From Curvularia clavata (Eukaryota): DNA of 64,000 bases. Below, one piece after another: positions 1 to 32,095 of this stretch. The notes below the pieces were generated by a model that did no database searches, was not told the DNA's origin, and saw nothing but the letters and a program-made list of their open reading frames with translations. Every line of letters starts with the position of its first letter. Position 1 is the first letter of the stretch. The stretch spans positions 186,001 to 250,000 of the forward strand of contig CP089279.1 of the NCBI GenBank assembly GCA_023920165.1, read 5' to 3'. The position numbers and the translations under genes are program-made.

Positions 1-556
1 AACTGTTTCGAGTTACCCCGCTATCTGGAAGACAAACGGCTTTGGAAAGACCACGACTATGTTCACTATGTATCGCCTACTTTGCTCATTCACTAGAGAT
101 ACATGCAAAGCTTGGACCGTGAAAGGCACTCGTCTCCCACGCGAAACCAGCAACAATAGCTCATCTTCATAGTATACAAATGTGCCAATCTCATCACCTT
201 GGTTAGTTTCTAATACTAATTGCGGAAGCTCTCCGAATACCCCAATTGGCTATCATCTGGGAGGTTCACAAAAGTGTCCCCTAGGGTGTGGTCAAATATT
301 TTTAGACGTATCTCGCACACAGTGCTGAGCATTGCCGTCGGTATACAGACTGCGTTTCACGTGCTGTTGATGCAATATCTCACGTTTGAATGCATAGAGA
401 CTACAGAAGCTCTAGTATCTTACTTCTAGCAACTCAATCATCGGTGGGTTTTCCCAATGGCCAGATTCTGAGTGTCTGGAATAGCTAAACTTTTAGCTGA
501 GTTAATGTATAGCTATCTTCTTTGTAGATACCACTGAAAATCGACTATATATCGTA

Positions 557-2987
557 TTAAATGCCTCTAATACCTGCTAGACAATTGACAACTCTTGAAG
601 AAAACATGCTATGAGCGCTGAAGTCATCTAAATTAGCAGTGATGTCTTCAAAGGTAAGACATGCAACAATGCTATCTACGAAGCTCTGTCCACAGACATG
701 TGGTCCCTCCACCCGCAGTCTCTCTAGAAGCTCATCTCTGATCTTTGTGGGAATCAAAGTTCTGCTAGGGCTGGACTTCAACTCAGGGAACCCTGTTATC
801 GGTTTCCAATATGCCAGCTCCAATAATATAATTCCCTTAGTGGAAGTGAGTCAGATTCCATATGCATCGAAGATAGTTTTATACTTACAAGCGAGTAAAT
901 ATCATGCGATTTCTTGAACTTGATAAGCGGTTTGCCCCATCGCTCAGGGTGCCTATATGCATTGTTGGTCAGAGAATGATCCTCTTGCAAAAGTGTACCA
1001 TCGATCTCGGGACGTGAGTATTCAAAGCCAAACAGCCACGGTTGACCCAACAAGATAGTCGCATTCGCGTCCGTATCGACCGGAAGAAAAACAATGTTGT
1101 CACTCTTCAATGATTTGTGCACCCATCCGACTTTGTGGAAACTCTCCAGCGCCTTTGCAAGGCTGGCCGCCAATTTGATACGCGCTCCCAGTGCAACTCT
1201 CTTCTGCTTAGACATGTATTTTGAAAGCATCAATGGCGCGCCGGGTTTTCGGTTTGGAGTTTGAGAACTGTTCATATGTGAGACTTGTGTGTCGAAAGAG
1301 TCCCAGGGCCCACCCGCAACCTCAAAGATGAGTGATAGTGTCTTGCCGGACAAATCATGTGTGTATCCTAAGCAGGGGAGAATGTGAAAAGTTTCTTGCT
1401 TGGGATGGCATAGCTGTGCTACCATCTTCCTGAATTGCATCATCATGGGAAGTGGGGCCTCGTTCGAGGTACCTTCGGTAAGGTGTTGATAGTTGAATAT
1501 CTCAGCAACTATCGGGCGTCCCTCGATGCTTCCTGTACGTAATCGAGACTGTCCATCACCTTTCCCGCGTTTATCCCAAGTCATAAGCCTACGCGGAATA
1601 TCGAGTCGATCAGGTATTGACGCCGAGCTTAGAAGCCGCTGGCGTAAACTGATGGCTTGATCAACTTCACAAGCTGCGACGACTGAGTCGTCTTGAGCTT
1701 TCGTGAGATCCATGTTGGAATGCAGTAAGATGCCCTTCTCGACACTTTCGGAAACATCGGCCACTTTGCTATTCAAACTCCGCAAGGTTGTGGCTTTGAG
1801 ATCCCCAGCTATATTCGCTCGCGCTACTTCTGTCTGCGTCAATATTTTGGTCGTTTTCATGGCGTCGGCCAACTTTGATACCCTATCGATAATCTCAGAC
1901 TGAGCAGAAAGGGAAAGCTCTCCTAGTATGGAGCCCTGCAATGGATTGTGTTTCTCATTCAGTCCTTCGAGAAATCGTGCTCGCAGTATTAGCGCCTCAA
2001 TGTTCACATCACTGACGGTGTTTGGTGGATAACTCTTAAGCCAATCTGCTAGTTGGTGTGCTGTTGGGTCTTCTGAAAATGACACGGAAAGGAGAGCAAA
2101 TGATGAGGCGGCTGGCCTTTTTTGTGCGAAGCCCGGAGCAACCTTCGCTGCTAAAGGTGCCAACCTGATTGTAGGTAGGTCTCGCTTCGCCAATGTAAAA
2201 TATTGCGGTGATTCTAACAAACCATTAGTAGTCAGAGATTTGGTGACAGGAAATGGGACTACTTACCAGTAAGTGCTGGCTGGGTTGAAACACTCCAGAG
2301 ATGCGTTTGTAGCCAGCGGATCGGTACGTCTTTACCCGCATCAATCTGCCTTTTTAACTCTCTAATGAGGATTGAAGTGAACGACCGTCGCCCTGGCTTT
2401 GGTACTCTCGATCCAGAGCTCGATGCAGCCAGGATCTCGAATTGCCCGTTCTCGAATTTTTGGTATATCTTGGTCGCAGCATAACAGCAGTCCAAGAGTA
2501 CAAGTACATCGCTGTGAGCGTTTCCAAGCTGCAATTGAAGAGGGAACCATTCCACAGTCGGGCCACCCTCTAGGTTTCTGTGTGACACGATTATGGATAT
2601 GAATGGATTAGGATATTGACGAACTCACGCTGTCCAAACTGGATACCCGGCCGCATCGATCACGGTGTTGTCTCCATGCCCTCCATAATACACAATAATC
2701 AAGTCACGTTCGCCTGAGGCAAATTCTTTAACGAAGGAAGTTAGCCTATCCGCTAACTCAGCCGCCGAATTAATGCTCGGTATGTGGTATCGCTGGGTGC
2801 TGTATCCCAGGTGCTGCTCAAGTAGCACGTTCAGCCGGTCAATCTCAGAGGCCACTCCCAATTCGTCATCAGCCCACGAGATCAGAATTGCAGTAACCCT
2901 TTCGTATTGACGTTTTTGAGTGGACCAGAATCCGCGTGTCCGTTGCTGAAAGTCATTGATGATTTGCTCGTCCGAGACGTCGCCCAT
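557..2987 (-). CDS. Caspase-like (peptidase C14/CHAT-fold) domain fused to a C-terminal kinase-like (pseudokinase) domain; 4 exons, ~760 aa
   Basis: ATG at 2987. ORF-track pieces 2625-3002, 2259-2588, 796-2220 and 557-823 join in frame through three GT..AG introns. N-terminal motifs LIIVYYGGHG and VLVLLDCCYA give the caspase His-Gly/Cys dyad. C-terminal WVHKSLKSDNIVF, LFGFEYSR, AYRHPER and DIYSL|GIILLE are typical of the fungal kinase-like domain. Confidence 0.85.
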
Positions 2988-3728
2988 GGCGGCGTCGTTC
3001 AATAGCCCTCACAATTTGTTGACGCTGATGTCTCTCGAGGCGGTATGTTATGGTAAGTGGAGCTGTTTGTTCTGAGCTGGCATGCGTTGTTGAGTGACAC
3101 AAAGTGCGGGGGAGTGCATGTAACACGACAATGAGGCAATCACATTCTACAAGCCACCCACGTGATCTCAGCGGTCATTGATAAGGCACGCAGCCCTATC
3201 TTCGGACCTTTTGATTTATTGAGACGCTCTCAAGTACGAATATTGATATCAGAGGTGAAGCCAAATGGCGTCCAAGAAAGAAAAGCCCGGGCGTACAAAT
3301 CCGCCTGGGAATGATGAGAGTAGCGACGAAGAGGATACCACGGTTTGAGAATCACACGGTAATCGCTTTTTCTAAAACACACTAAGACGCCTAGTTTCAC
3401 CCATCTGCTCCCGGGGACTTCCGTGGAAAGGTTACAAAGTATCCTACCGCTGCACTCGTAAGCTGAATCGGTTATTTGACTCTTGCTGCATGAGATTCCT
3501 GACGCGTCTAGGAGTACCCCGCCCCTCCAGCATACAACGTGGGCGAAGAAGTCTTCCTCCTCATCCCCGGGCAGGCACAACCAGCAGGCCCCTACGAAGT
3601 TATGCAATCTCTGGAGGGAAAGCGATACCGCATCAAGGCTAAAGGAACTGGTCAGGAACACCATTCGCTCGTGAGAGAAAGTGACCTAGTGTACAAGGTT
3701 CAGACTTGATTCCGAGGATCTTCTGAAT

Positions 3729-6700
3729 TCACGTCGAGTAGCCATCGAACAGTAACGTCATCATTTCCTGGACGTAGTCGTAAACGTCAGAAGAAACAAT
3801 CAAATAGTCTTGTCTCGTCCTCCGGTAGAACTCTGTCAAGCAATCAAAGGCCGTGCGCCCCTCATTGTCTTTGACGTTGCGATCTGCACCAAGCTCAAGT
3901 AGAGCTTCAACCGCCTTTGGTGCCCCGCAAATGGTGGCCACATGGAGGGCAGTGCCTAGTTGTGGGCTCACTGCATTGAGGAGTGAGGTCTGGTGCTCAA
4001 ATGCGCGGTACCAGGTGTCAGATTGAGGGCCCTCTAGCAAGGACACCAGAAAGGACTCTTCCTGAGGTAGCAACACGAGAGCTTCCATGTGTTCGAGTAT
4101 CGGTTTCTGGGTCCGAAATGTCATCTCTATAGCCCGCGCACTAACAGCGAGATGCAATAAAGTCGGTGCCGGGGCGTCACTGCTACTTCCAAGCCATGGG
4201 TCTCCTCCATGGTCGAGCATCTGTAACCAGTCAATCATCGGATTTCAGAAAGTAGAATGCTAATATCCTACCCAGGCGAGAAGGTCCCCTCGTTTAGCTT
4301 TTACAAGTAAACCCAGCGGGTTATAATAGAGGCATTCGGTGTCCAAGACCGCCTCAGAAGGTGGCATGTTCACGTCAGCGCCCTTCTGCACTAGAAGTTG
4401 AACGCATTCATCAGAGGCCCATTCGCATGCGATATGCAATGCGGTTTTGCCCATTCCATTACTAACGTCAATGCTGATGTCCGGATGCGCGAGGATAGTC
4501 TCGACGATTGCTAATGCGTCCTTCTTTGCACTTTCGTGAAGAATGGTCTGCCCGTTTGTTTGCACAATTTTGTGGCCCGGTATGTCTGCCCACGGAAGTT
4601 TTGGATGTTGGTAGAGCATCTTGAAGGCCGTGTGATTGAGGTGATCATTCATAGATGAATGTATCGCACTGAACAGAACGTCAACGGTGATCGGTTTTTC
4701 CATAGAAATGGTCTTTTCTAGCAGACATGCGAGCAAATCTGCATCAGTCCTGGGGTTTGCTGCGGCGAGACCTAGAGGTGTATAGCTGATTCTGTAGGCC
4801 TGTAGGTTTTTGTAAGCGTTCTCATCTTCTTCGTCAATCAAGGCACCATGTGATAGCAGCAGATCAATTGTAGAATTGATGGCACCAATGTATCCCGAAC
4901 CATGTATCATCCACTACGCATGTTCGATTAGTCTGTGGTTCTCGAGAAGCTTGGTAGGGGAGGAATCAGCATACCTTAGTGTGAATGGAAGCACAGAAGG
5001 CTAGACCGAGTTGATGCAGCGGAGACGACCTGCTGAACCAGTGCTTCTCAGCACTGGCACCGTACCTGATAAGAAGCTCACATATCTCAGGGAGACAGAG
5101 TGACGCCGCCAGATCCAAACTGCTAATCCAAGGACAGCGGCAATTTGGATCTGCGCCCAGCTCTAAGAGAGTCTCAACAGCAGTGAAGTTACGTATTCCT
5201 ACTGCAAAGTGAAGTGGAGTTCCAGAAAGCGAGACACCATACCAAGAGGTCCACCAGTGGAAATTCGATCTCGTCCGTGCCATTATGGAACCTCCGGCTT
5301 CCAGAAGCCGACTCGCTATCCTCGGTATTTCTTCACGTGGGAAAATAGCAAGCAGATGCAAAGGGGATGTTCCTGAATCATCAGTGAGTGATGCCTTCGC
5401 CCCGTTATCCAGCAGGAGTAATGTCATTTCCACACTTCCTATAGAGCATGCTTCGAATAAAGCAGTGCGGTCCTCATCATCTGTCGAGTTCACATCGTAA
5501 CCTTGATTTAGAAGAGCTTCCGCAAGTCGTATATTGTTCGTCGATGCAGCGAAGTGAAGTGGGCCTTGTAGATATGTGCCTCTTGTTGCAAGAACCTGGA
5601 GATTATCTGGCACAGATGCGCAATTATCTTCAACAGCTTCATGGACGTCCATATAGGAGAAATCCCGAGTATTGGACGAAACTTTTAGACTTTGAATCGA
5701 TTGAATACGCTTTGCTACAGCGGCGAGCTGGTATTCGCGAATCGCCTCTGAGAATGAATATGCGCCAATTTTGGGTTCGGAATCGTGAGCCGTTGCAGAT
5801 CGCAGTCGACTGACAATCATTTCCTTTGGCGCAGAGTTACGCAACTGAAGGAAGGGCTCATAGGCTGATTCGGGCGCAAACTTGACCCCATATCCATATG
5901 CGTAGCAGCTGGAAAGATCGAATAAGCGGGGCGATCCGTCGCTTTCTGGTGCGGAGTGGCAATATTCTACAACTGATTTCCCGAAAATAAGTGGATAAGA
6001 GATCTCGACATCATCAACTGGTTGCAGGATCGAGCGCAGCCCATCAAAGACAGCTCTTTTTGTCGACCACGGACAGATTACTGATATGACCTGGATTTGA
6101 TCAAACCAGACTCATTGGTGGATCAATATTACTTACACTTTCGATATTCCAGGCCAAGTATTGATCTTTCGCACTTCTGGAAAAAGTTGGTTCGAAGTTG
6201 GCTATCGGATGGTCGTAGTACCTGGATCGGTTACCTACATGTAATATCATGAAGAAGGTTCAATATACTCCCTAATGTCCAGCAGCTTTGATGCTGTTCG
6301 CATAGAATATCGCCTATGTGTGTCACTGTCTAGACAACCTTTGACAAGCTCTAAGAAGACAGTGCGCAACTCTTCAGGGATCCTTGGAGTCGTCTCTTGA
6401 ACCATGACATTTTCAATTAACTCACACAATTTCTCCGTGAGATAGTTCGGCGATTGCGAGACCAGAAAGGGTATTCGTCGGGGAGGGTCCGAAAATTCGG
6501 CAGATAGCCATTCATCTTGGAAGTAGTTGACCTTCGAGCTAATGATGCAACAAGCTGTTAGGCCGAAGCTCCACACGTCGCACTTTGGCCAATCTTCACG
6601 TTTCAGGGTCTTAGACGCACTATCACCGTACAGGGTCGCGAGCACTTCTGGTGCGCTGAACAGCGGTGTTCCAACGTACGATTCGTAGCCATTGTTCTCT

Positions 6701-7356
6701 AAGCGGAAGCTGGAGTGACCGAAATCTGTCAGGCGCGCAGTGATGACAGATTCTGGGTCGTTTTGCACACTTGAAGAATTGATAACCAAAATATTCTGCG
6801 GTTTCACATCACCATGAACGATTCCTTCGCTGTGAAGAGCTTCAAGGCCTCGTGCGATTTCTTGGCAAAGACGATGTCGGAGCGTCCAGCCGTCAGTTTG
6901 ATGCGAGATGAATACCAATATGAAGTTGTCCAGTGTTCCATAAAAGGCGTTCTGAACAAGTAGGGATGGTACTTGGTCGAACGGGAACCAAATGTATGCC
7001 TCAATCCCCACAATAGGGGCACTCTCTCGAAGGGGCTCATAAGCCATTATTTGTATCTCGCGGAGTGTCGTTGTTGCGACGCCCTTTTGATTCTGATGTC
7101 CTCGATACTTTGGCATCTTGATCGCTAAAGAACGGCCATGGCGACCTATACTCTCGCAGTTGTAGACGGAAAAAGACGTCCCTTCCCCAAGAAAATCACA
7201 AACAGCTAGCTCCTGAACGTATGGGAGCCCCGCCTGGGACAGCCCAGTCAGCATTCCGACGCTGGTTTCCCACTCTATGTCCCTGTCGCCGTCCGTTTCG
7301 ATTCCGTCGTTTTCGCTGCTACAAAAGAAGCTCCAAAGCGCGGTTCTTGAATCCAT
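3729..7356 (-). CDS. Protein kinase + SEL1-like repeat + ankyrin repeat protein (multi-exon, ~1100 aa)
   Basis: First ATG at 7356. Kinase motifs GEGTSFSVY, LAIK, HGDVKPQN, DFG, APE, DVWSFG. After introns near 6.1-6.27 kb the frame reads LFDLSSCYAYGYGVKF (SEL1-like), then many ankyrin motifs (GPLHFAA, RTALFEAC, SPLHLLA, GTPLHFAV, GKTALHIAC, GTALHVA). Introns at ~4914-4974 and 4221-4271 keep the frame. Confidence 0.85.
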
Positions 7357-7629
7357 ACTGATGTGTATGCAGAATTTTAACGGTGACGTGCAGTTGTAGT
7401 TTGATGATGCGTTCAGCCTCGTGGCTGCAGAAACTATGATTTCTTTCGTTTCCCATGCGCTGTCAGCAGCTGCTCGGTCCAATCCCGATTGGGTGGTGGT
7501 TCACTCTGATAGGCTGTGATTCCGGTGAGCATTGATTTTGTGCCCCACCTCGCAGCTGAGGTTTCAAAATACCATCGACCCCAGAAAATCACGGTTTCAT
7601 TCTCCGTCTACACTCTAAGGTAACCAAAT

Positions 7630-8768
7630 ATGGCACGATTACCCCATCCATCTGGATTCACGGCTCGAACTACATCGAATCTCTCACATGCCTACCCACA
7701 GAACTTTACGAACAACCCTGAAAAAGGTGAGCAGGCTGAAGGCTTCCAGGCAGATGAAAAGTTCACAATGCAAAGTGGAAGACAGGCGAAACGGCTATCC
7801 CCGACTTGCAGCTTTCATCAACAGCGACCTCGACTTTGTAGTTTTCCGTCGTTTTGGACATTTGCACGTGCGCTATCTCCTATTTCTACAGGATGAGATT
7901 GCGGAGATGGAGCAAAAACTTCATACCCTCGATATGATAGAACCCTGCTCATTCAATCTCAATACTCGACGCCATGATGGGAATCAGGAACGTTGTAGGA
8001 TACTGAAAACCTTGGGTGAAAAGCTATTCGACTACGGTACGTTTGCTCGCCAATGTATGGGCGTATTGGAAAACTCGTGCATTTTCCATGTCACTCCCAC
8101 TTAATATCTGATAGAAAAACTCAATTCATTTCGAATTTAGATAAGCTCTTGGAAATGTACTACAAGCATGTCGAGCGCGGTCCCTCAGACCCAAAAAATG
8201 TCCAAAGCGTGGCAAACTGGATGCAAGGCAACAAACCTCTGACAGCCGAGGAATCTACATTTCTCAACTCATGGGACGATCTCGTATCTCCGTCGGAGCA
8301 CGCCGATCACGGCGGCTTGAATGTGCTGCTCAAGCGGCTCTCACACAAGGTCTACGGATGGGCTTCTACCAAAGTAAGCTAAACCCATTTCATTGACAAG
8401 ATTTGAAAAAAAAAATCGCTTAGCCCATTCAAGAAGCAAACGTCCATATCTCGCGATCCTCATGTCATTGCGGTTGACGTGTCTCTCATACTGTCCACTG
8501 CACGGGCCCTGACTACCATCCTGGCTGTCGTGATCTTGACTATTCCGATAGCAGTTTTGTACAATGTGAAGAGCATGAGTTCTAGACTTTGGATCATTGG
8601 AATCTCAACCTGCGCTTTCTCTTCATGCCTTTGTATTTTCACCCACTCTCGAAACGCCGAGATATTCTCGGCGACGGCCGCGTAAGTCGGTACCCACTCA
8701 TTGTGGACCGTGCTGATAAGGATTCAAGATACTGTGCAGTGCTAGTCGTTTTTGTTGGCAATATCTAA
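7630..8768 (+). CDS. DUF6594-type membrane protein (C-terminal ~3 hydrophobic helices)
   Basis: GYPRLAAFINSDLDFVVFRRFGHLHVRYLLFLQDEIAEMEQKL, then hydrophobic helices ending EIFSATAA|YCAVLVVFVGNI* (TAA 8766-8768). These match the N- and C-terminal signatures I recall for fungal DUF6594. The start (7630 vs 7688) and some acceptor sites are uncertain. Confidence 0.8.
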
Positions 8769-8930
8769 CAGGATAAGATCACCTGTTGTTTGCCTCCAGC
8801 TCTAATACTCCCATAGTAGATGTCCTCATACACATTTGCCGGTCTGGCAGAAACTACCTGGCATTGAGCTATTCGATAGTACAAAACATTACATAATTTC
8901 GTTATTCATCTTCAGTCGTAGCAGAGGATT

Positions 8931-10397
8931 TTATACCTCGATTCGCAGGTGTCGAAACCCTCGAGTCATGGTTTCGTCCTCCCACTCACTATCGTACATG
9001 TATAAAGATATCAAGCCCTGACTTCCTCTATGTACCTCGGGAGGCTGGCTTGGATAAGGTATAGCATTGTTGAGTATTCCCAACTCAACATCATCAGTCG
9101 TATCGCGTCCATGACTCCAGTTTGTATCCCCAGAGGTCTTTGGATTATCCAGCGTATCTTTATCCATTTCTTCGCGAACTTGTACACCGCCCATGTTATC
9201 GACGGAGAATTGGGTTGCTTGTGAGTAGTATCCGTGGTTCGCGAAGGAATTCTTCCACAAGGCCAACTTTGATTTAGATTTTCCTGAGGGGGTGCTATTC
9301 GTTTGGCTGGCCGTCTGCGATGACTTTGCTTGCGACGACTTTGCTTGCGACGATTTGGCTCGGGAAGAATCTTGGCCCTTGGACAATATGGATTTGACAT
9401 CGAAATAGCGCTTCGCAAAGGCCTTGAAAGCTGGCGCATTTGCACATATGACGCCGATATGGAACTCGAGGAGGGTCCAGTTCCAAATCTCCCAGAGTTG
9501 CCACGAAACATCGTACGTCTCAAAGAAAAGAACGTAAGTGGCATAGGTTCGCAAAGCCCCAAATGCAGCTGCTACATAAGCAGTGGCAAATATTGCCATG
9601 AGGGCTACTTTTTGTCGAAGTGGGATTTGAGCTTTCCAATAGATGAAATTTGGTAGTAGAGCGCAGATTACGTCTTGAAGCGTAGAGATGACGCCGGCAG
9701 CTGCCATGGCAGCGCCCTCGTTATTGCAGTTGAATTTTTTCCCCAGCGCTATGTTTATGACACTGGACTGCTCCCAGTAAGCAGAGATAGGTCTGCATCC
9801 AACAAGCGGACTTATAAAGAAAGCGACGGTGGACGCAATCTGGAACCCAATTGCAGTCCAGGTGACGATTCTGAAAGTTTTTGACGTGCCGCGCGATCCC
9901 AGGCGACGGAAGAAGAGCAGAATGGAAACTTTGACAAGGCCTGTGCCGACGACGAATAGCATCTCTATGGTCAGGATGAGCTTTCTTTGAACCACAAACA
10001 AGGTGACATCAACGTCCCATATATGGACGCCGCTGTGATATCTGTCTGCAGCTACGAGAAGTCAGCTGTGAAGTGGAATGGAAATGTCGCATCATCTTAC
10101 TCCATGGGACAAGAATAGCCAAAGTCATGATGATTGGCTGCAGACAGTAAGTGGATGAAGCATTCCAAGTGGTAATAGGTAACTTACAAGAGCAATTACC
10201 ATGAGCCAGTCATCCCAACCAGCATTGCGCTGCATTCTGAACCGAGCCCACAGCCTTGCGAAGATGACAAAAAAGGTAATGGGGGTTAGAACGAAAGCGA
10301 GGTTAGACGTCACTCTTCCTCTTCCCTCTGGATTAACATAGTTTGGAGCCGGCCATGAAGCGATGACGCTCAGTGGGGGGCTGGGGCCACCAGGCAT
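8931..10397 (-). CDS. PTH11-like (fungal rhodopsin-domain) 7TM integral membrane protein, no CFEM domain seen
   Basis: MPGG..SWPAPNYVNPEGRG, GWDDWLM, KVSILLFFRR, CRPISAYW, D..CALLP, W...E..IGVICANAP: typical of the PTH11-like family. Confidence 0.85.
9316..9360. repeat. 3 x 15-bp tandem repeat in the receptor tail (encodes AKSSQ x3)
   Basis: tgcgatgactttgct / tgcgacgactttgct / tgcgacgatttggct. Confidence 0.9.
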
Positions 10398-11190
10398 ATT
10401 GATGAACTGTCAAGCAAGCAAACAAATTGAGAGTGTAGGCTACATTTGGATTGTGTGCCGCGGAGCACCGAGTTATTATGTATTGTGTTTTTTGTATGCT
10501 TCAGCTGCTTATTTCCGTTCTTCTCAGCAAAACTAGCGTGTGATGGGAGTTGCAAGGCCGCCACTAGAGACACTGGGTTAGCGGGTGCATGCAAGCATAC
10601 TTTCAACGGCTCTCGCGCTTGGCTGGCGCCAGTACGTGTATGGCAGCCTCGGCTATGCCGTGCTTCATTTCGTTTTCACAAACATTAACGGGGAGGAGGA
10701 GCAGACTTTTGTCGATCATGGTTCAATTCAGTGGGGAGATTTGACGGAACGTGTGCATGAATCGACAGCCGAGTTGATACCAAACCAACATAGGCACGCC
10801 ATAGTTGCCGTACACGGTGCTTTTACCGCTTTTGCAATGGGAGTCCGAGCGCCATGTCTGTGACGGGCGTGCCTCGAGACCGCAGGCATGCTCTGTGATT
10901 ACTAGCAGACGGTTTGAACACGCAATCACGAGGTTGGTCCAAGTGGAACCCAGGAACCAGGGACAGCTCACGCGGCAACGATCGAGGTCTGGCTCGGGCC
11001 AACGTTCGGCCACTGGCGTCATCTTAGTGCCCGCTACCACGTGCAAGGCCCGTGCCCACCGTTCTCTGCCTTGCACCACCAGCCTGCATAACTCCTTGTA
11101 TGGAAATGTGCTGTGCCTGGCTACTTGTGTACCTGGCAGCCCCCTTGGTCGGTCGCGGTTGCAATGGGATGCGCCTCGTGCTGGCGATAC

Positions 11191-30846: not shown

Positions 30847-32095
30847 ATGGAGCCAGATGAACACGACGACTACTCCTGGAGGATAGTAGTTGTGACAACA
30901 TTGTGTCTGGTAGTATCCACGGTTGCTGTTGGTCTACGATTTTACGTTCGATATGTGATCATCAGAAAGCTGGGGTATGACGATTGGTTCTTGGCTGGGG
31001 CTCTGGTGCGGATATCTATGCCTTCTCTAATACTGTGTACTAATGTCCCCAGGTCTCTTACATTGGAGTAGCCATTATGACCGCCGCCTGTAAGCATGAA
31101 ATAGGCTCCCCACAATTGATCTTGGGTCTAATCAGTAATGAAGGTATAAATTTTGGACTCGGTCGCCATATAGACACCATCTCTTTCCAAAAGAGATCCG
31201 TTTTCCTCAAGGTTTGTCAACTCCGTACGCAAGCGCTCCTCAACTAACATGCAAGCGCCATGTAGCTCATCTGGTTTGCGTCTATTGGGTATGGAGCGGT
31301 CATCGTGCTGATAAAAATGGCCTTTCTGTTTCAATACCGCCGTGTGTTCCCACTCCGCAACTTCCAGCGTGCATGCGATTTGTTCCTCGTGTTCGTGGTC
31401 CTATGGGCTGTGGGTGGGACAATCGGGGCTATACTCAACTGCCGGCCTCTCAAAAGGAACTGGGATCCTTTATTACCTAGAGATTGTGCGGGCCGCATGA
31501 GCTTCTGGTTCGCCATGGGCGTTTTGCACGTCCTCACTGATGTGATCATCTTTATTTTACCTCTGCCACTTTTGGGAACATTGCCTCTACCAAGATCCCA
31601 GAAGGTAATTCTCATGGCGATCTTCTCTCTTGGCTTCTTGTAAGTTTCCCCTTCTTTGCATGATGTTGAATTGCAAGCTCATAGAATGTCTTCAGTACAT
31701 GCGCAATCTCTATTATCCGCCTCACCACACTCCGAGCTTCAACCTTGAGCGCAGACCCGACATGGACAATGGCAAGCACGGTTACATGGTCCGTGTCTGA
31801 AGCTGCGTGCGCGATCCTCTGCGTGTGTATTCCGACGCTGCGGCCACTTCTGCGACGTTTTCATGGCTGGCGGCTGCATTCTGGCAACGCGAATGAGTTG
31901 GTAATATTACAAAGATCAGAAGAAGCAAACAGCAGGACGCCTGGGTCGTGCGATATGGACAGCGCTGGCACTCAAAACAAGTCGTCCTCGCAGACAAGAA
32001 CTGATGTCGAAGACGGCTTCAACCAGGCCGTAAATGCTGATGATTTAAGCAGGCCACGACCGTGTCATTTGTCTAAACCAGGGGCAGCCGGCTGA
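30847..32095 (+). CDS. Second PTH11-like 7TM integral membrane protein
   Basis: LRFYVR..IIRKLGYDDW, IKMAFLFQYRRVF, CRPLKRNWD, TDVIIFILPLP, DPTW...WSVSE..CAILCVCIPTLRPL; multi-exon. Confidence 0.87.

What the first reader, a model, noticed from the sequence alone, without database searches (positions are those of the whole stretch)
557..8768. Candidate three-gene fungal regulated-cell-death/immunity module: caspase-pseudokinase + kinase-SEL1-ankyrin + DUF6594 membrane protein
Seen in the sequence: three tightly packed, apparently intact genes encoding (i) a caspase-like protease fused to a catalytically degenerate kinase, (ii) a kinase with full catalytic motifs carrying SEL1/ankyrin repeats, and (iii) a small multi-helix membrane protein transcribed head-to-head with (ii). 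Established: fungal death and non-self systems are often encoded as small clusters of sensor, protease or kinase, and membrane effector (NWD2/het-s; gasdermin-protease het-Q), and in animals the kinase RIPK3 activates the pseudokinase MLKL. Inference: the repeat kinase senses a cue and phosphorylates the pseudokinase, which releases the protease to process or activate the DUF6594 membrane effector. I know of no description of this combination, but I cannot search to confirm novelty.
Basis: partly seen in the sequence, partly recalled or inferred. Interest (0 to 1): 0.85.

Follow-up and report, generated by a model that had tools for sequence, protein, structure and literature searches.

The report
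Conserved fungal kinase, pseudokinase-protease gene cluster
Four tightly packed fungal genes (a sensor-like kinase, a protease fused to a dead kinase resembling the animal cell-death protein MLKL, a membrane protein and a small protein) stay together across distant fungi, which points to an undescribed signalling module that may control cell death.

Summary
The genes are real, intact, spliced and transcribed. There are four genes, not three.

- **G1:** a metacaspase-fold protease with a conserved His/Cys pair, fused to an MLKL-like pseudokinase (Pfam DUF7580).
- **G2:** a kinase with all catalytic motifs plus ankyrin repeats. No SEL1 repeat was found.
- **G3:** a DUF6594 protein with three membrane helices.
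- **G4 (new):** a 112-aa protein, head-to-head with G1.

Among 10 diverged metagenomic lineages of G1 with usable flanks, G3 is adjacent in 10, G4 in 9 and G2 in 7. Gene order is rearranged and the outer neighbours differ. The gene trees agree at supported nodes.

Relatives of G1 that carry a HeLo domain instead of the protease also sit next to a G2-like kinase, in 10 of 19 lineages. None of them has G3 or G4. Elsewhere, DUF6594 occurs fused to C14 or CHAT proteases.

Best reading: a RIPK3/MLKL-like pair of sensor kinase and pseudokinase whose output here is a protease acting with G3 and G4. Linkage is shown; the mechanism and any death or immune role are inferred. My literature searches found no description of it.

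The parts
557..2987 (-). G1: gene for a metacaspase-like protease fused to an MLKL-like pseudokinase (757 aa). Exons 2987-2629, 2577-2267, 2213-889 and 835-557.
   Evidence: Splice model. All three introns appear in spliced contigs of runs X1, X3 and X5. The Exserohilum turcicum orthologue P0002 (752 aa) is 84% identical over the large exon.
2267..2987 (-). G1 protease domain (exons 1-2). The catalytic His lies in YYGGHGD and the Cys in LLDCCYA.
   Evidence: Pfam Peptidase_C14 E=3.1e-4 on the window exon. 11 of 33 A2 members match it. The AF2 model of P0002, residues 27-245, matches Arabidopsis metacaspase 4 (6w8r_A): Z 18.4, rmsd 3.2, 206 residues aligned. His is present in 21 of 21 and the second Cys in 19 of 19 sequences that cover the column.
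557..2213 (-). G1 helical linker plus pseudokinase domain (DUF7580). It has HKS for HRD, GFE for DFG and Glu for the beta3 Lys.
   Evidence: Pfam DUF7580 is weak on the window exon (E=0.0045) but E=2.4e-6 on P0002. The best PDB profile matches are MLKL (6vbz 5.9e-5, 4m68/4m69, 4btf). By VIA-align, BRAF scores Z 20.8 and rat MLKL Z 18.3 (21% identity).
3265..3712 (+). G4: newly recognised small gene (112 aa). Exons 3265-3342, 3395-3457 and 3512-3712. The N-terminus is acidic and low in complexity; the C-terminal ~62 aa are conserved. It lies head-to-head with G1 and tail-to-tail with G2.
   Evidence: GT..AG joints appear in all four laid runs. Model. The last exon is 100% identical to P0118, which is also 112 aa (Curvularia clavata yc1106_07707). 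It is conserved next to G1 in the related loci.
3729..7356 (-). G2: kinase with C-terminal ankyrin repeats (1140 aa). Exons 7356-6269 (kinase), 6221-6137, 6090-4975, 4913-4272 and 4220-3729.
   Evidence: Pkinase E=9.7e-29 and Ank repeats. Catalytic motifs are intact. All four introns, including those flanking the 85-nt exon, are confirmed by spliced contigs. No Sel1 at E<=1.
7630..8768 (+). G3: DUF6594 membrane protein (292 aa). Exons 7630-7726, 7776-8036, 8141-8373, 8434-8681 and 8729-8768. The three predicted membrane helices are encoded in 8434-8768.
   Evidence: Pfam DUF6594. Four introns are seen in spliced contigs. Corrected start. The AF2 model of the Lophiotrema orthologue P0116 has pLDDT 89.9 and helices at 214-242, 246-267 and 272-292.
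2988..3264 (.). 277-bp divergent intergenic region between the G1 and G4 start codons.
   Evidence: Coordinates of the two start codons. The same head-to-head layout recurs in the related loci.
7357..7629 (.). 273-bp divergent intergenic region between the G2 and G3 start codons.
   Evidence: Coordinates.

Best explanation
This is a conserved four-gene module of filamentous ascomycetes, built around a kinase/pseudokinase pair.

G2 is an active-type kinase of the non-RD kind (HGD instead of HRD). Its ankyrin repeats are the likely input domain.

G1 carries an MLKL-like pseudokinase as its receiver. Where MLKL has a membrane-attacking helical bundle, G1 has a metacaspase-fold protease with an intact His/Cys pair.

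I propose the following sequence, which is inferred and not shown:
1. G2 is triggered and phosphorylates the activation loop after the GFE motif of G1, or binds G1 there.
2. This switches or oligomerises G1 and turns on its protease.
3. The protease acts on or with the two genes that accompany only the protease-type relatives: G3 (DUF6594, a helical cytosolic domain plus three membrane helices) and G4 (a small SH3-like protein).
4. The output is a membrane or cell-death response.

In paralogous two-gene systems the protease, G3 and G4 are replaced by a HeLo domain fused directly to the pseudokinase.
For: **Genes real and expressed**
- Spliced contigs from organism A (studies P1 and P2) and pieces from a root metatranscriptome cover the genes.

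**Linkage**
- Of 80 related loci (56 lineages at >=90% identity), 10 protease-type lineages have >=5 kb of upstream flank.
- G3 is adjacent in 10 of 10, G4 in 9 of 10 and G2 in 7 of 10.
- L025, with only 880 bp of upstream flank, also has G4.
- All hits lie in the 231.8 kb of upstream flank. There are none in the 231.7 kb of downstream flank, and no G3 or G4 hits in 378 kb flanking non-protease relatives.
- Gene order differs between lineages: G3(-) G2(+) G4(-) G1(+) in the window and L001/L002, G2(+) G3(-) G4(-) G1(+) in most others, and another order in L031/L034.
- Outer neighbours also differ (Cid1-type polymerase and Rtf2; GDPD; CorA, PAP1 and PfkB; a fungal rhodopsin in the window).
- Trees of G1, G2 and G3 share their supported clades.

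**Named genomes**
- G1 and G4 have consecutive tags and accessions in E. turcicum.
- In Lophiotrema, G1 and G3 are KAF2112294 and KAF2112297.

**Kinase/pseudokinase logic**
- The top PDB sequence matches of the G1 profile are MLKL, aligned at GFE and the activation loop.
- 10 of 19 non-protease lineages with >=4 kb of flank have a G2-like kinase, 9 of them with ankyrin repeats. In 13 of the 14 lineages with a kinase hit, the kinase lies upstream on the opposite strand.
- Their N-termini are HeLo or weakly HeLo-like.
- G2-type kinases keep the Lys, the Glu, HGD and DF(G/S).

**Protease-DUF6594 link**
- Of 18 long DUF6594 proteins scanned, 2 carry Peptidase_C14 and 1 carries TPR plus CHAT.
- An earlier scan note reports a Ddi1-like protease paired with a DUF6594 gene.
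Against: - No experiment, interaction or phosphorylation data exist.
- Three of 10 lineages lack an intact G2. L006-8 has none. L030 and L032/33 have only short ankyrin remnants, and their G1 reading frames are fragmented.
- L031/34 lacks a clear G4. L041 lacks both G3 and G4.
- 9 of 19 non-protease lineages show no G2-like kinase by tblastn. One of these has a kinase-TPR gene by Pfam.
- Many loci come from a few assembly series. Several lineages share one assembly and may be paralogues, so the 10 lineages are not 10 independent species.
- In one E. turcicum annotation the G3 tag (05800) is 167 away from G1 (05967), although accessions in another annotation are 2-3 apart.
- Some DUF6594-protease fusions could be merged gene models.
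- G2's closest solved kinase by sequence is ULK1, not RIPK3.
- The ankyrin repeats are not homogenised like NLR sensor repeats: no tandem DNA repeats were found.
- The PDB sequence matches to MLKL are weak (E 6e-5 to 3e-3).
Confidence: 0.5

Rival explanations
1. The cluster is a non-lethal signalling pathway. The kinase-controlled protease releases the cytosolic helical domain of the membrane-tethered DUF6594 protein, or processes G4, as a regulator or signal. This would resemble regulated release of membrane-bound factors, with no role in cell death or immunity.
For: DUF6594 is an integral membrane protein with a large, confidently modelled cytosolic helical domain. Its juxtamembrane linker carries a basic patch before D-x-H-[VL]-I in most G1-associated copies. 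The structural match of the protease is to a plant metacaspase; that this enzyme processes a small peptide precursor is recalled, not taken from a call. An earlier scan note likens a DUF6594 pairing to DDI2 and NRF1.
Against: In paralogous pairs the same pseudokinase and kinase partner with HeLo, a domain known from membrane-attacking death proteins (passages of PMC12881547). That argues for an equivalent, destructive output. No DNA-binding or other regulator domain is seen in G3 or G4.
Confidence: 0.2
2. The locus is specifically an allorecognition (heterokaryon-incompatibility-type) locus, in which divergent alleles of G1 interact with its partners when strains fuse.
For: Transcript contigs of organism A differ from the window by 49 of 1327 bases (3.7%) in the large G1 exon. 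They differ by only 1 of 1139 bases in the G2 kinase exon and by 0 in the laid G3 pieces. A metatranscriptome carries pieces that match the window almost exactly (0-2 differing bases per piece). One lineage has a variant lacking G3 and G4 (L041).
Against: Of the 38 listed coding differences in G1, 21 are synonymous and 17 are not. That looks like purifying rather than diversifying selection. No genome-wide background divergence is available because no genome is held. The cluster is conserved over large distances, unlike many fast-turnover het genes.
Confidence: 0.12
3. The pseudokinase is a decoy or scaffold rather than a substrate. G1 monitors the state of the G2 kinase, or of something that attacks kinases, and fires its protease when that is disturbed. 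Phosphorylation by G2 is not the trigger.
For: The pseudokinase consistently lacks catalytic residues yet is highly conserved. Kinase and pseudokinase are inherited together. Pseudokinase decoys are known in plant immunity (recalled, not from a call).
Against: The G2-type kinases retain every catalytic motif across lineages, which suggests that their activity matters. The similarity to MLKL centres on the activation loop, which passages of PMC12881547 describe as the RIPK3 target.
Confidence: 0.1
4. The genes are neighbours by descent only and do not work together.
For: All evidence is comparative. The lineages come from a limited set of assemblies.
Against: The linkage persists at 26-54% identity of G1 to the window, through at least three different gene orders and with unrelated outer neighbours. 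Independent fusions join DUF6594 to C14 and CHAT proteases. The kinase-pseudokinase pairing recurs with a different effector domain.
Confidence: 0.05

Closest known systems
Animal necroptosis pair RIPK3 and MLKL
   Same: An active kinase is paired with a pseudokinase that has GFE in place of DFG and carries an N-terminal executioner domain. MLKL pseudokinases are the best PDB sequence matches of the G1 profile and match structurally at Z 18.3. HeLo-bearing paralogues reproduce the full MLKL-like architecture.
   Different: The genes are physically clustered. The kinase carries ankyrin repeats (TPR in L080) and is not RIPK-like by sequence; its best match is ULK1. In G1 the executioner is a metacaspase-fold protease accompanied by two extra genes. 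G1 also lacks the beta3 Lys. Phosphorylation is untested.
Fungal HeLo/HELL death proteins (HET-S, HELLP) and the HELL-kinase architecture noted in reviews
   Same: The same DUF7580 pseudokinase is fused to HeLo in paralogues. The review PMC12881547 (passages read) notes that some HELL domains sit in proteins with a kinase or pseudokinase domain.
   Different: Known HeLo and HELL proteins are activated by amyloid templating from NLRs. Here the conserved neighbour is a kinase with repeats. G1 itself has no HeLo domain. I found no statement of the kinase adjacency in the passages read.
Fungal gasdermin-protease two-gene clusters (het-Q type)
   Same: A protease gene sits next to a gene for a membrane-acting protein. 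The reviews say such proteases (S8 or CHAT) can be fused to repeats or to predicted kinase-like domains (passages of PMC12881547 and PMC10197012).
   Different: The membrane partner is DUF6594, an all-helical protein with three membrane helices and no solved-structure match. No gasdermin hit appeared in the Pfam scans of the loci. The protease is C14/metacaspase-like rather than CHAT or S8. The cluster also has a separate kinase gene and G4.
Plant type II metacaspase AtMC4
   Same: It is the only non-kinase entry among the 50 VIA matches listed and covers the G1 protease domain: Z 18.4, 206 aligned residues. The His/Cys pair is conserved.
   Different: Sequence identity is only 12%. G1 is fused to a pseudokinase. 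Calcium dependence, Arg/Lys specificity and a peptide-precursor substrate are recalled properties of AtMC4 and were not tested here.

Membership tests
Peptidase C14 (caspase/metacaspase fold), for the G1 N-terminus | Caspase-hemoglobinase fold | tested here: met
   The AF2 model of orthologue P0002 (pLDDT 81.3), residues 27-245, matches metacaspase 4 (6w8r_A): Z 18.4, rmsd 3.2, 206 aligned. The model is of the orthologue, not of the window protein.
Peptidase C14 (caspase/metacaspase fold), for the G1 N-terminus | Catalytic His and Cys | tested here: met
   His is present in 21 of 21 and the second Cys of DCC in 19 of 19 A2 sequences that cover the column. Both are present in the window.
Peptidase C14 (caspase/metacaspase fold), for the G1 N-terminus | Pfam PF00656 score above its curated cut-off | tested here: inconclusive
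   The window exon scores 20.9 bits against a cut-off of 21.4, and P0002 scores 17.7. L023 scores 28.0. 11 of 33 A2 members match at E<=0.01, best 8.3e-7; 19 of the 33 are full length.
MLKL-type pseudokinase, for the G1 C-terminus | Protein-kinase fold without catalytic residues | tested here: met
   Kinase fold at Z 20.8 (BRAF) and 18.3 (rat MLKL). The catalytic Asp position holds D in only 3 of 33 sequences. The DFG Asp position is G in 32 of 33. The beta3 Lys position is E in 31 of 33.
MLKL-type pseudokinase, for the G1 C-terminus | Specific sequence kinship with MLKL (GFE motif, activation loop) | tested here: met
   The three best of 5 PDB profile matches are MLKL (E 5.9e-5, 9.8e-4, 2.7e-3), aligned from GFE through the PERW segment. 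The E-values are weak.
MLKL-type pseudokinase, for the G1 C-terminus | N-terminal four-helix-bundle or HeLo executioner domain | tested here: not met
   G1 has a metacaspase-fold domain instead. HeLo is found only in paralogues. G1 is therefore not an MLKL orthologue, though it may work like one.
RIPK3-MLKL type signalling | The kinase phosphorylates the pseudokinase activation loop | not testable with these tools
   Only gene adjacency and co-inheritance are shown.
Eukaryotic protein kinase (active), for G2 | Pkinase profile plus the catalytic Lys, Glu, HxD, DFG and APE motifs | tested here: met
   Pkinase scores 101 bits against a cut-off of 31.7. The LAIK, E, HGD, DFG and APE motifs are present, and HGD is shared by 13 of 15 aligned G2-type kinases.
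Sel1 repeat, for G2 | Match to PF08238 | tested here: not met
   There is no Sel1 hit at E<=1 on the exon between the kinase and the ankyrin repeats. Only one weak hit (E=5e-4, below the cut-off) was seen, in a paralogue, L038.
DUF6594 (PF20237), for G3 | Pfam profile above its cut-off, with C-terminal membrane helices | tested here: met
   The exons score 76.8 and 59.6 bits against a cut-off of 30. The orthologue P0116 scores 203 bits over the full profile. Three long C-terminal helices are modelled.
Fungal gasdermin-protease cluster | The partner protein is a gasdermin | tested here: inconclusive
   No gasdermin family appeared in the Pfam scans of the window or loci. G3 is all-helical with membrane helices and no significant PDB match. 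A missing match does not exclude remote kinship.
NLR (NOD-like receptor) sensor | A NACHT or NB-ARC nucleotide-binding domain | tested here: not met
   No such domain was found in G1-G4 or in the neighbours scanned. The repeats are attached to a kinase instead.

The most novel reading that the evidence does not exclude
Filamentous fungi have a widespread family of clustered necroptosis-like systems. In these, a repeat-bearing sensor kinase (ankyrin or TPR) controls an MLKL-like DUF7580 pseudokinase whose executioner is interchangeable. It is either a HeLo membrane-attacking domain or a metacaspase that works with a dedicated membrane protein (DUF6594) and a small SH3-like protein. DUF6594, with at least 2941 cluster representatives, would then be a new class of protease-coupled membrane effector, comparable in role to gasdermin. 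The kinase-to-pseudokinase death switch would be shared, or reinvented, between fungi and animals.
Probability: 0.35. Interest if true: 0.9.

Novelty: new variant of a known kind. Interest (0 to 1): 0.85.

Why it matters
- It would give fungi a counterpart of the kinase-to-pseudokinase switch that runs animal necroptosis, encoded as a compact gene cluster that can be tested directly.
- It shows one receiver domain being swapped between a pore-type effector and a protease-type effector.
- It gives a first functional context to two large families of unknown function (DUF7580 and DUF6594) and to a new small protein family.
- It links metacaspases, whose roles in fungi are debated, to a defined partner set.
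- The cluster is present but unannotated as such in public genomes of plant-associated fungi.

Tried and rejected
- **Whole genome of the window:** none is held. No within-genome paralogue survey or background divergence was possible.
- **SEL1 repeats in G2:** none at E<=1.
- **Predicted complex of G1 with G4:** the job was not folded by the tool's pairing rule, so there is no result either way.
- **Solved-structure matches for DUF6594:** the best Foldseek E-value is 0.35. VIA-align found only generic helical hairpins (Z about 9, residues 58-136). No fold assignment follows.
- **PDB sequence search with the first G1 protease exon:** no match at E<=10.
- **Foldseek on the full G1 model:** the list was filled by kinases. 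The protease domain surfaced only in the VIA wide search.
- **Tandem DNA repeats in the ankyrin region:** 0 rows.
- **G4 family assignment:** only a sub-threshold Integrase_p58_C hit (E=0.019) and Atlas structure rows with TM 0.47-0.49 to SH3-like integrase tails. This is a lead, not an assignment.
- **G4 homologue search:** only 2 proteins in the 35-114 aa length band.
- **G3 homologue search for longer proteins:** only 3.
- **Earlier-findings look-ups:** by combined words and by G1 sequence, nothing was found.
- **Contig depth in the laid runs:** it cannot rank expression of the genes.
- **Diversifying selection on G1:** not supported by the 38 listed differences. Only 40 of 124 difference rows were shown.

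Full report
**1. What is in the window**

Stop-to-stop reading frames and Pfam scans of 1-11000 gave these pieces:
- On the minus strand, a caspase-like piece (Peptidase_C14 E=3.1e-4, 20.9 bits against a cut-off of 21.4).
- A long frame with a weak DUF7580 hit (E=0.0045).
- A protein kinase (E=9.7e-29), followed by ankyrin repeats.
- On the plus strand, three DUF6594 pieces.

I called introns by eye from GT..AG sites and frame continuity. Spliced contigs from public runs then confirmed every one of them. That includes the two short introns flanking an 85-nt exon in G2.

- G3 has an extra intron (7727-7775), which moves its start codon to 7630. The new N-terminus matches the Lophiotrema orthologue P0116.
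- A fourth spliced gene, G4, lies on the plus strand between G1 and G2 (3265-3712, 112 aa). Its last exon is 100% identical to P0118, a 112-aa protein annotated in Curvularia clavata. The window therefore probably comes from that species or a very close relative.

The four genes form two head-to-head pairs, G1/G4 (277 bp apart) and G2/G3 (273 bp apart). The pairs are joined tail-to-tail, with 16 bp between the G4 and G2 stop codons.

The rest of the window holds ordinary metabolic and housekeeping genes. No Sel1 repeat is detectable in G2 at E<=1.

**2. The proteins**

*G1.* 114 database proteins matched its large exon at E<=0.001.
- Full-length relatives of about 750 aa occur in Dothideomycetes, Sordariomycetes, Leotiomycetes, Pezizomycetes and lichen fungi.
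- More distant hits combine DUF7580 with HeLo (PF14479).
- An AF2 model of the E. turcicum orthologue P0002 (84% identical, mean pLDDT 81.3) was searched against about 48,000 solved chains.
- Residues 27-245 match Arabidopsis metacaspase 4: Z 18.4, rmsd 3.2, 206 residues aligned.
- Residues about 424-752 match kinases: BRAF Z 20.8, IRAK1 19.3, rat MLKL 18.3 (the highest identity in the list, 21%) and mouse RIP3 18.2.
- The catalytic His and Cys are kept in every sequence covering those columns (21 of 21 and 19 of 19).
- The kinase catalytic positions are consistently lost: HK[ESGAD], GFE, and Glu for the beta3 Lys.
- A profile of the family found only five PDB sequences at E<=0.01. The best three are MLKL pseudokinases, aligned from the GFE motif through the activation loop.

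*G2.* G2-type kinases keep the Lys, the alphaC Glu, HGD, DFG (or DFS) and APE. Their closest solved relative by sequence is ULK1.

*G3.* The Lophiotrema orthologue was modelled at pLDDT 89.9.
- It has a helical N-terminal domain with a long hairpin, followed by three long C-terminal helices that are presumably membrane-spanning.
- It has no meaningful solved-structure match.

*G4.* It has a conserved C-terminal domain of about 62 aa. The only leads are to SH3-like integrase tails.

**3. Is the linkage more than chance or recent ancestry?**

A metagenome scan with a G1 alignment returned 80 loci with up to 10 kb of flank. They fall into 56 lineages at >=90% identity.

Twelve lineages have the protease domain. 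Ten of these have at least 5 kb of upstream flank. Within them:
- DUF6594 is adjacent in 10 of 10.
- G4 is adjacent in 9 of 10. It is also present in L025, which has only 880 bp of upstream flank.
- A kinase-ankyrin gene is adjacent in 7 of 10.

All hits are upstream of G1. There are none in 231.7 kb of downstream flank. There are no G3 or G4 hits in 378 kb around non-protease relatives.

The G1 large-exon region in these loci is 26-54% identical to the window's. Gene order differs between lineages, and the genes outside the cluster are unrelated. Maximum-likelihood trees of G1, G2 and G3 share their supported clades:
- window + L002: support 99, 99 and 98.
- L004 + L016, with L008: 97, 96 and 88.
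- L023/76 with L010/12: 96, 65 and 19.

In named genomes:
- G1 and G4 have consecutive tags and accessions in E. turcicum.
- G3 is 2-3 accessions away in one annotation, but 167 tags away in another.
- G1 and G3 fragments share contig lengths of 26,818 and 14,441 bp.
- In Lophiotrema, G1 and G3 are three accessions apart.

Exceptions and caveats:
- L006-8 has no G2.
- L030 and L032/33 have only ankyrin remnants and fragmented G1 frames.
- L031/34 lacks a clear G4.
- L041 lacks both G3 and G4.
- Many loci come from a few assembly series, and some lineages share an assembly, so the lineages are not fully independent.

**4. A wider pattern**

Of the 44 lineages without the protease, 19 have at least 4 kb of flank on one side.
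- Ten of the 19 have a G2-like kinase within about 7 kb, nine of them with ankyrin repeats.
- In 13 of the 14 lineages with a kinase hit, the kinase lies upstream on the opposite strand. In 12 of those 13 it sits 1.1-2.3 kb from the pseudokinase domain; L061 is the exception at 6.9 kb.
- Pfam adds one kinase-TPR neighbour (L080).
- The N-termini of these pseudokinase proteins are HeLo (L065, L070, L073, L074, and weaker in L044 and L061) or sub-threshold HeLo-like (L037, L038, L040, L050, L053, L079).

So the conserved core is a kinase-with-repeats gene next to a DUF7580 pseudokinase gene. DUF6594 and G4 travel only with the protease version.

Independently, I scanned 18 long DUF6594 proteins. 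Two begin with a Peptidase_C14 domain of the same GHG...DCC type. One carries TPR plus CHAT directly before DUF6594. These may be true fusions or merged neighbouring genes. Either way they link caspase-family proteases to DUF6594. I did not test that pairing.

**5. How it most likely works**

What is shown:
- The gene content, transcription and splicing.
- Intact catalytic motifs in G2 and in the G1 protease.
- Dead catalytic motifs in the G1 kinase-like domain.
- The sequence and fold similarity of that domain to MLKL.
- The conserved linkage.

What is inferred:
- By analogy with RIPK3 acting on the regulatory loop of MLKL (passages of PMC12881547), G2 senses something through its repeats and phosphorylates or binds the G1 pseudokinase.
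- This activates the protease, perhaps by oligomerisation.
- The protease acts on G3 and/or G4. G1-associated G3 proteins have a basic patch just before the first membrane helix. That would suit an Arg/Lys-specific metacaspase; the specificity is recalled, not tested.
- HeLo replaces the protease, G3 and G4 in paralogues. This suggests that the two outputs are equivalent and membrane-directed, and so possibly lethal.

Section 8 gives my odds for each of these steps.

**6. Literature**
- No paper in the library holds 'DUF6594' or 'DUF7580'.
- Searches combining HeLo, pseudokinase, MLKL, ankyrin, metacaspase, fungal gasdermin, CHAT and kinase gave reviews and NLR surveys.
- In passages of PMC12881547 and PMC10197012 I saw two relevant points. 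Some HELL domains occur with kinase or pseudokinase domains. Gasdermin-associated proteases can be fused to repeats or to predicted kinase-like domains.
- I saw no mention of an adjacent kinase gene, of DUF6594, or of a G4-like protein.
- In PMC9815663 and PMC13304501 the term searches found nothing relevant.
- All other papers were seen as search listings only. Subscription journals and supplements were not searched.

**7. Polymorphism (seen in passing)**
- Organism-A transcript contigs differ from the window by 3.7% in the large G1 exon. They differ by 0.09% in the G2 kinase exon and not at all in the laid G3 pieces.
- The metatranscriptome pieces match the window almost exactly (0-2 differing bases per piece).
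- Of the 38 listed coding differences in G1, 21 are synonymous.
- Without a genome-wide background this cannot be interpreted.

**8. Verdict**

The mechanism remains inference. My odds:
- A functionally linked cluster: about 0.9.
- The kinase acts on the pseudokinase: about 0.55.
- The output is protease action on G3 or G4: about 0.4.
- The biological role is cell death or immunity: about 0.5.

I rate it a new variant of a known kind (clustered fungal death or immune modules; kinase-pseudokinase switches). Interest is high.

Noticed in passing
It lies head-to-head with G1 and is conserved in that position in most related loci. It is now treated as part of the cluster.
   Followed up: yes
window 476-7404 compared with contigs of runs X1, X3 and X5: There is a gradient of divergence between the window and organism-A transcripts. 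It runs from 3.7% in the large G1 exon, through 2-3% across G4 and the 3' part of G2, to 0.09% in the G2 kinase exon and 0 in the G3 pieces. A root metatranscriptome carries pieces that match the window almost exactly (0-2 differing bases per piece). This may be a divergent G1 haplotype.
   Followed up: partly
L041:1-9514: A variant within the lineage of L005, L023 and L076 keeps the kinase-ankyrin gene and G1. It lacks DUF6594 and has only a 21-residue trace of G4. The gap between G2 and G1 is about 1.5 kb shorter. This may be a presence/absence polymorphism.
   Followed up: partly
L030:2700-11000 and L032:4000-11000: In these two lineages the kinase-ankyrin gene is reduced to short ankyrin remnants and the G1 frame is broken into several frames. 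The clusters may be decaying, or the genes may be intron-rich.
   Followed up: no
L080:544-5083: A DUF7580 protein with an unassigned 400-aa N-terminus lies head-to-head with a kinase that carries TPR repeats instead of ankyrin repeats and has HRD instead of HGD.
   Followed up: no
L049:6552-10941: Next to a DUF7580 gene lie an ankyrin-repeat gene and a separate SH3-domain gene, with no kinase detected.
   Followed up: no
L045:5681-6028 and L020:4322-4756: A HET-domain frame lies near one DUF7580 gene (L045). A Tc3-type transposase fragment lies near another that has no kinase neighbour (L020).
   Followed up: no
proteins P0232 and P0243: DUF6594 also occurs behind a methyltransferase domain (P0232, 554 aa) and behind a 515-aa N-terminal region without any Pfam family (P0243, 780 aa).
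   Followed up: no
window 8931-10409 (-) and 31142-32092 (+): There are two genes with the fungal rhodopsin domain (PF20684), one directly downstream of G3. A fragment of the same family lies near the L050 pair (L050:11571-12146).
   Followed up: no
orthologue accessions listed: In E. turcicum the DUF6594 orthologue is 2-3 accessions from G4 and G1 in one annotation. In another isolate's annotation its tag is 167 away from G1. The two annotations disagree, or their numbering is not positional.
   Followed up: no
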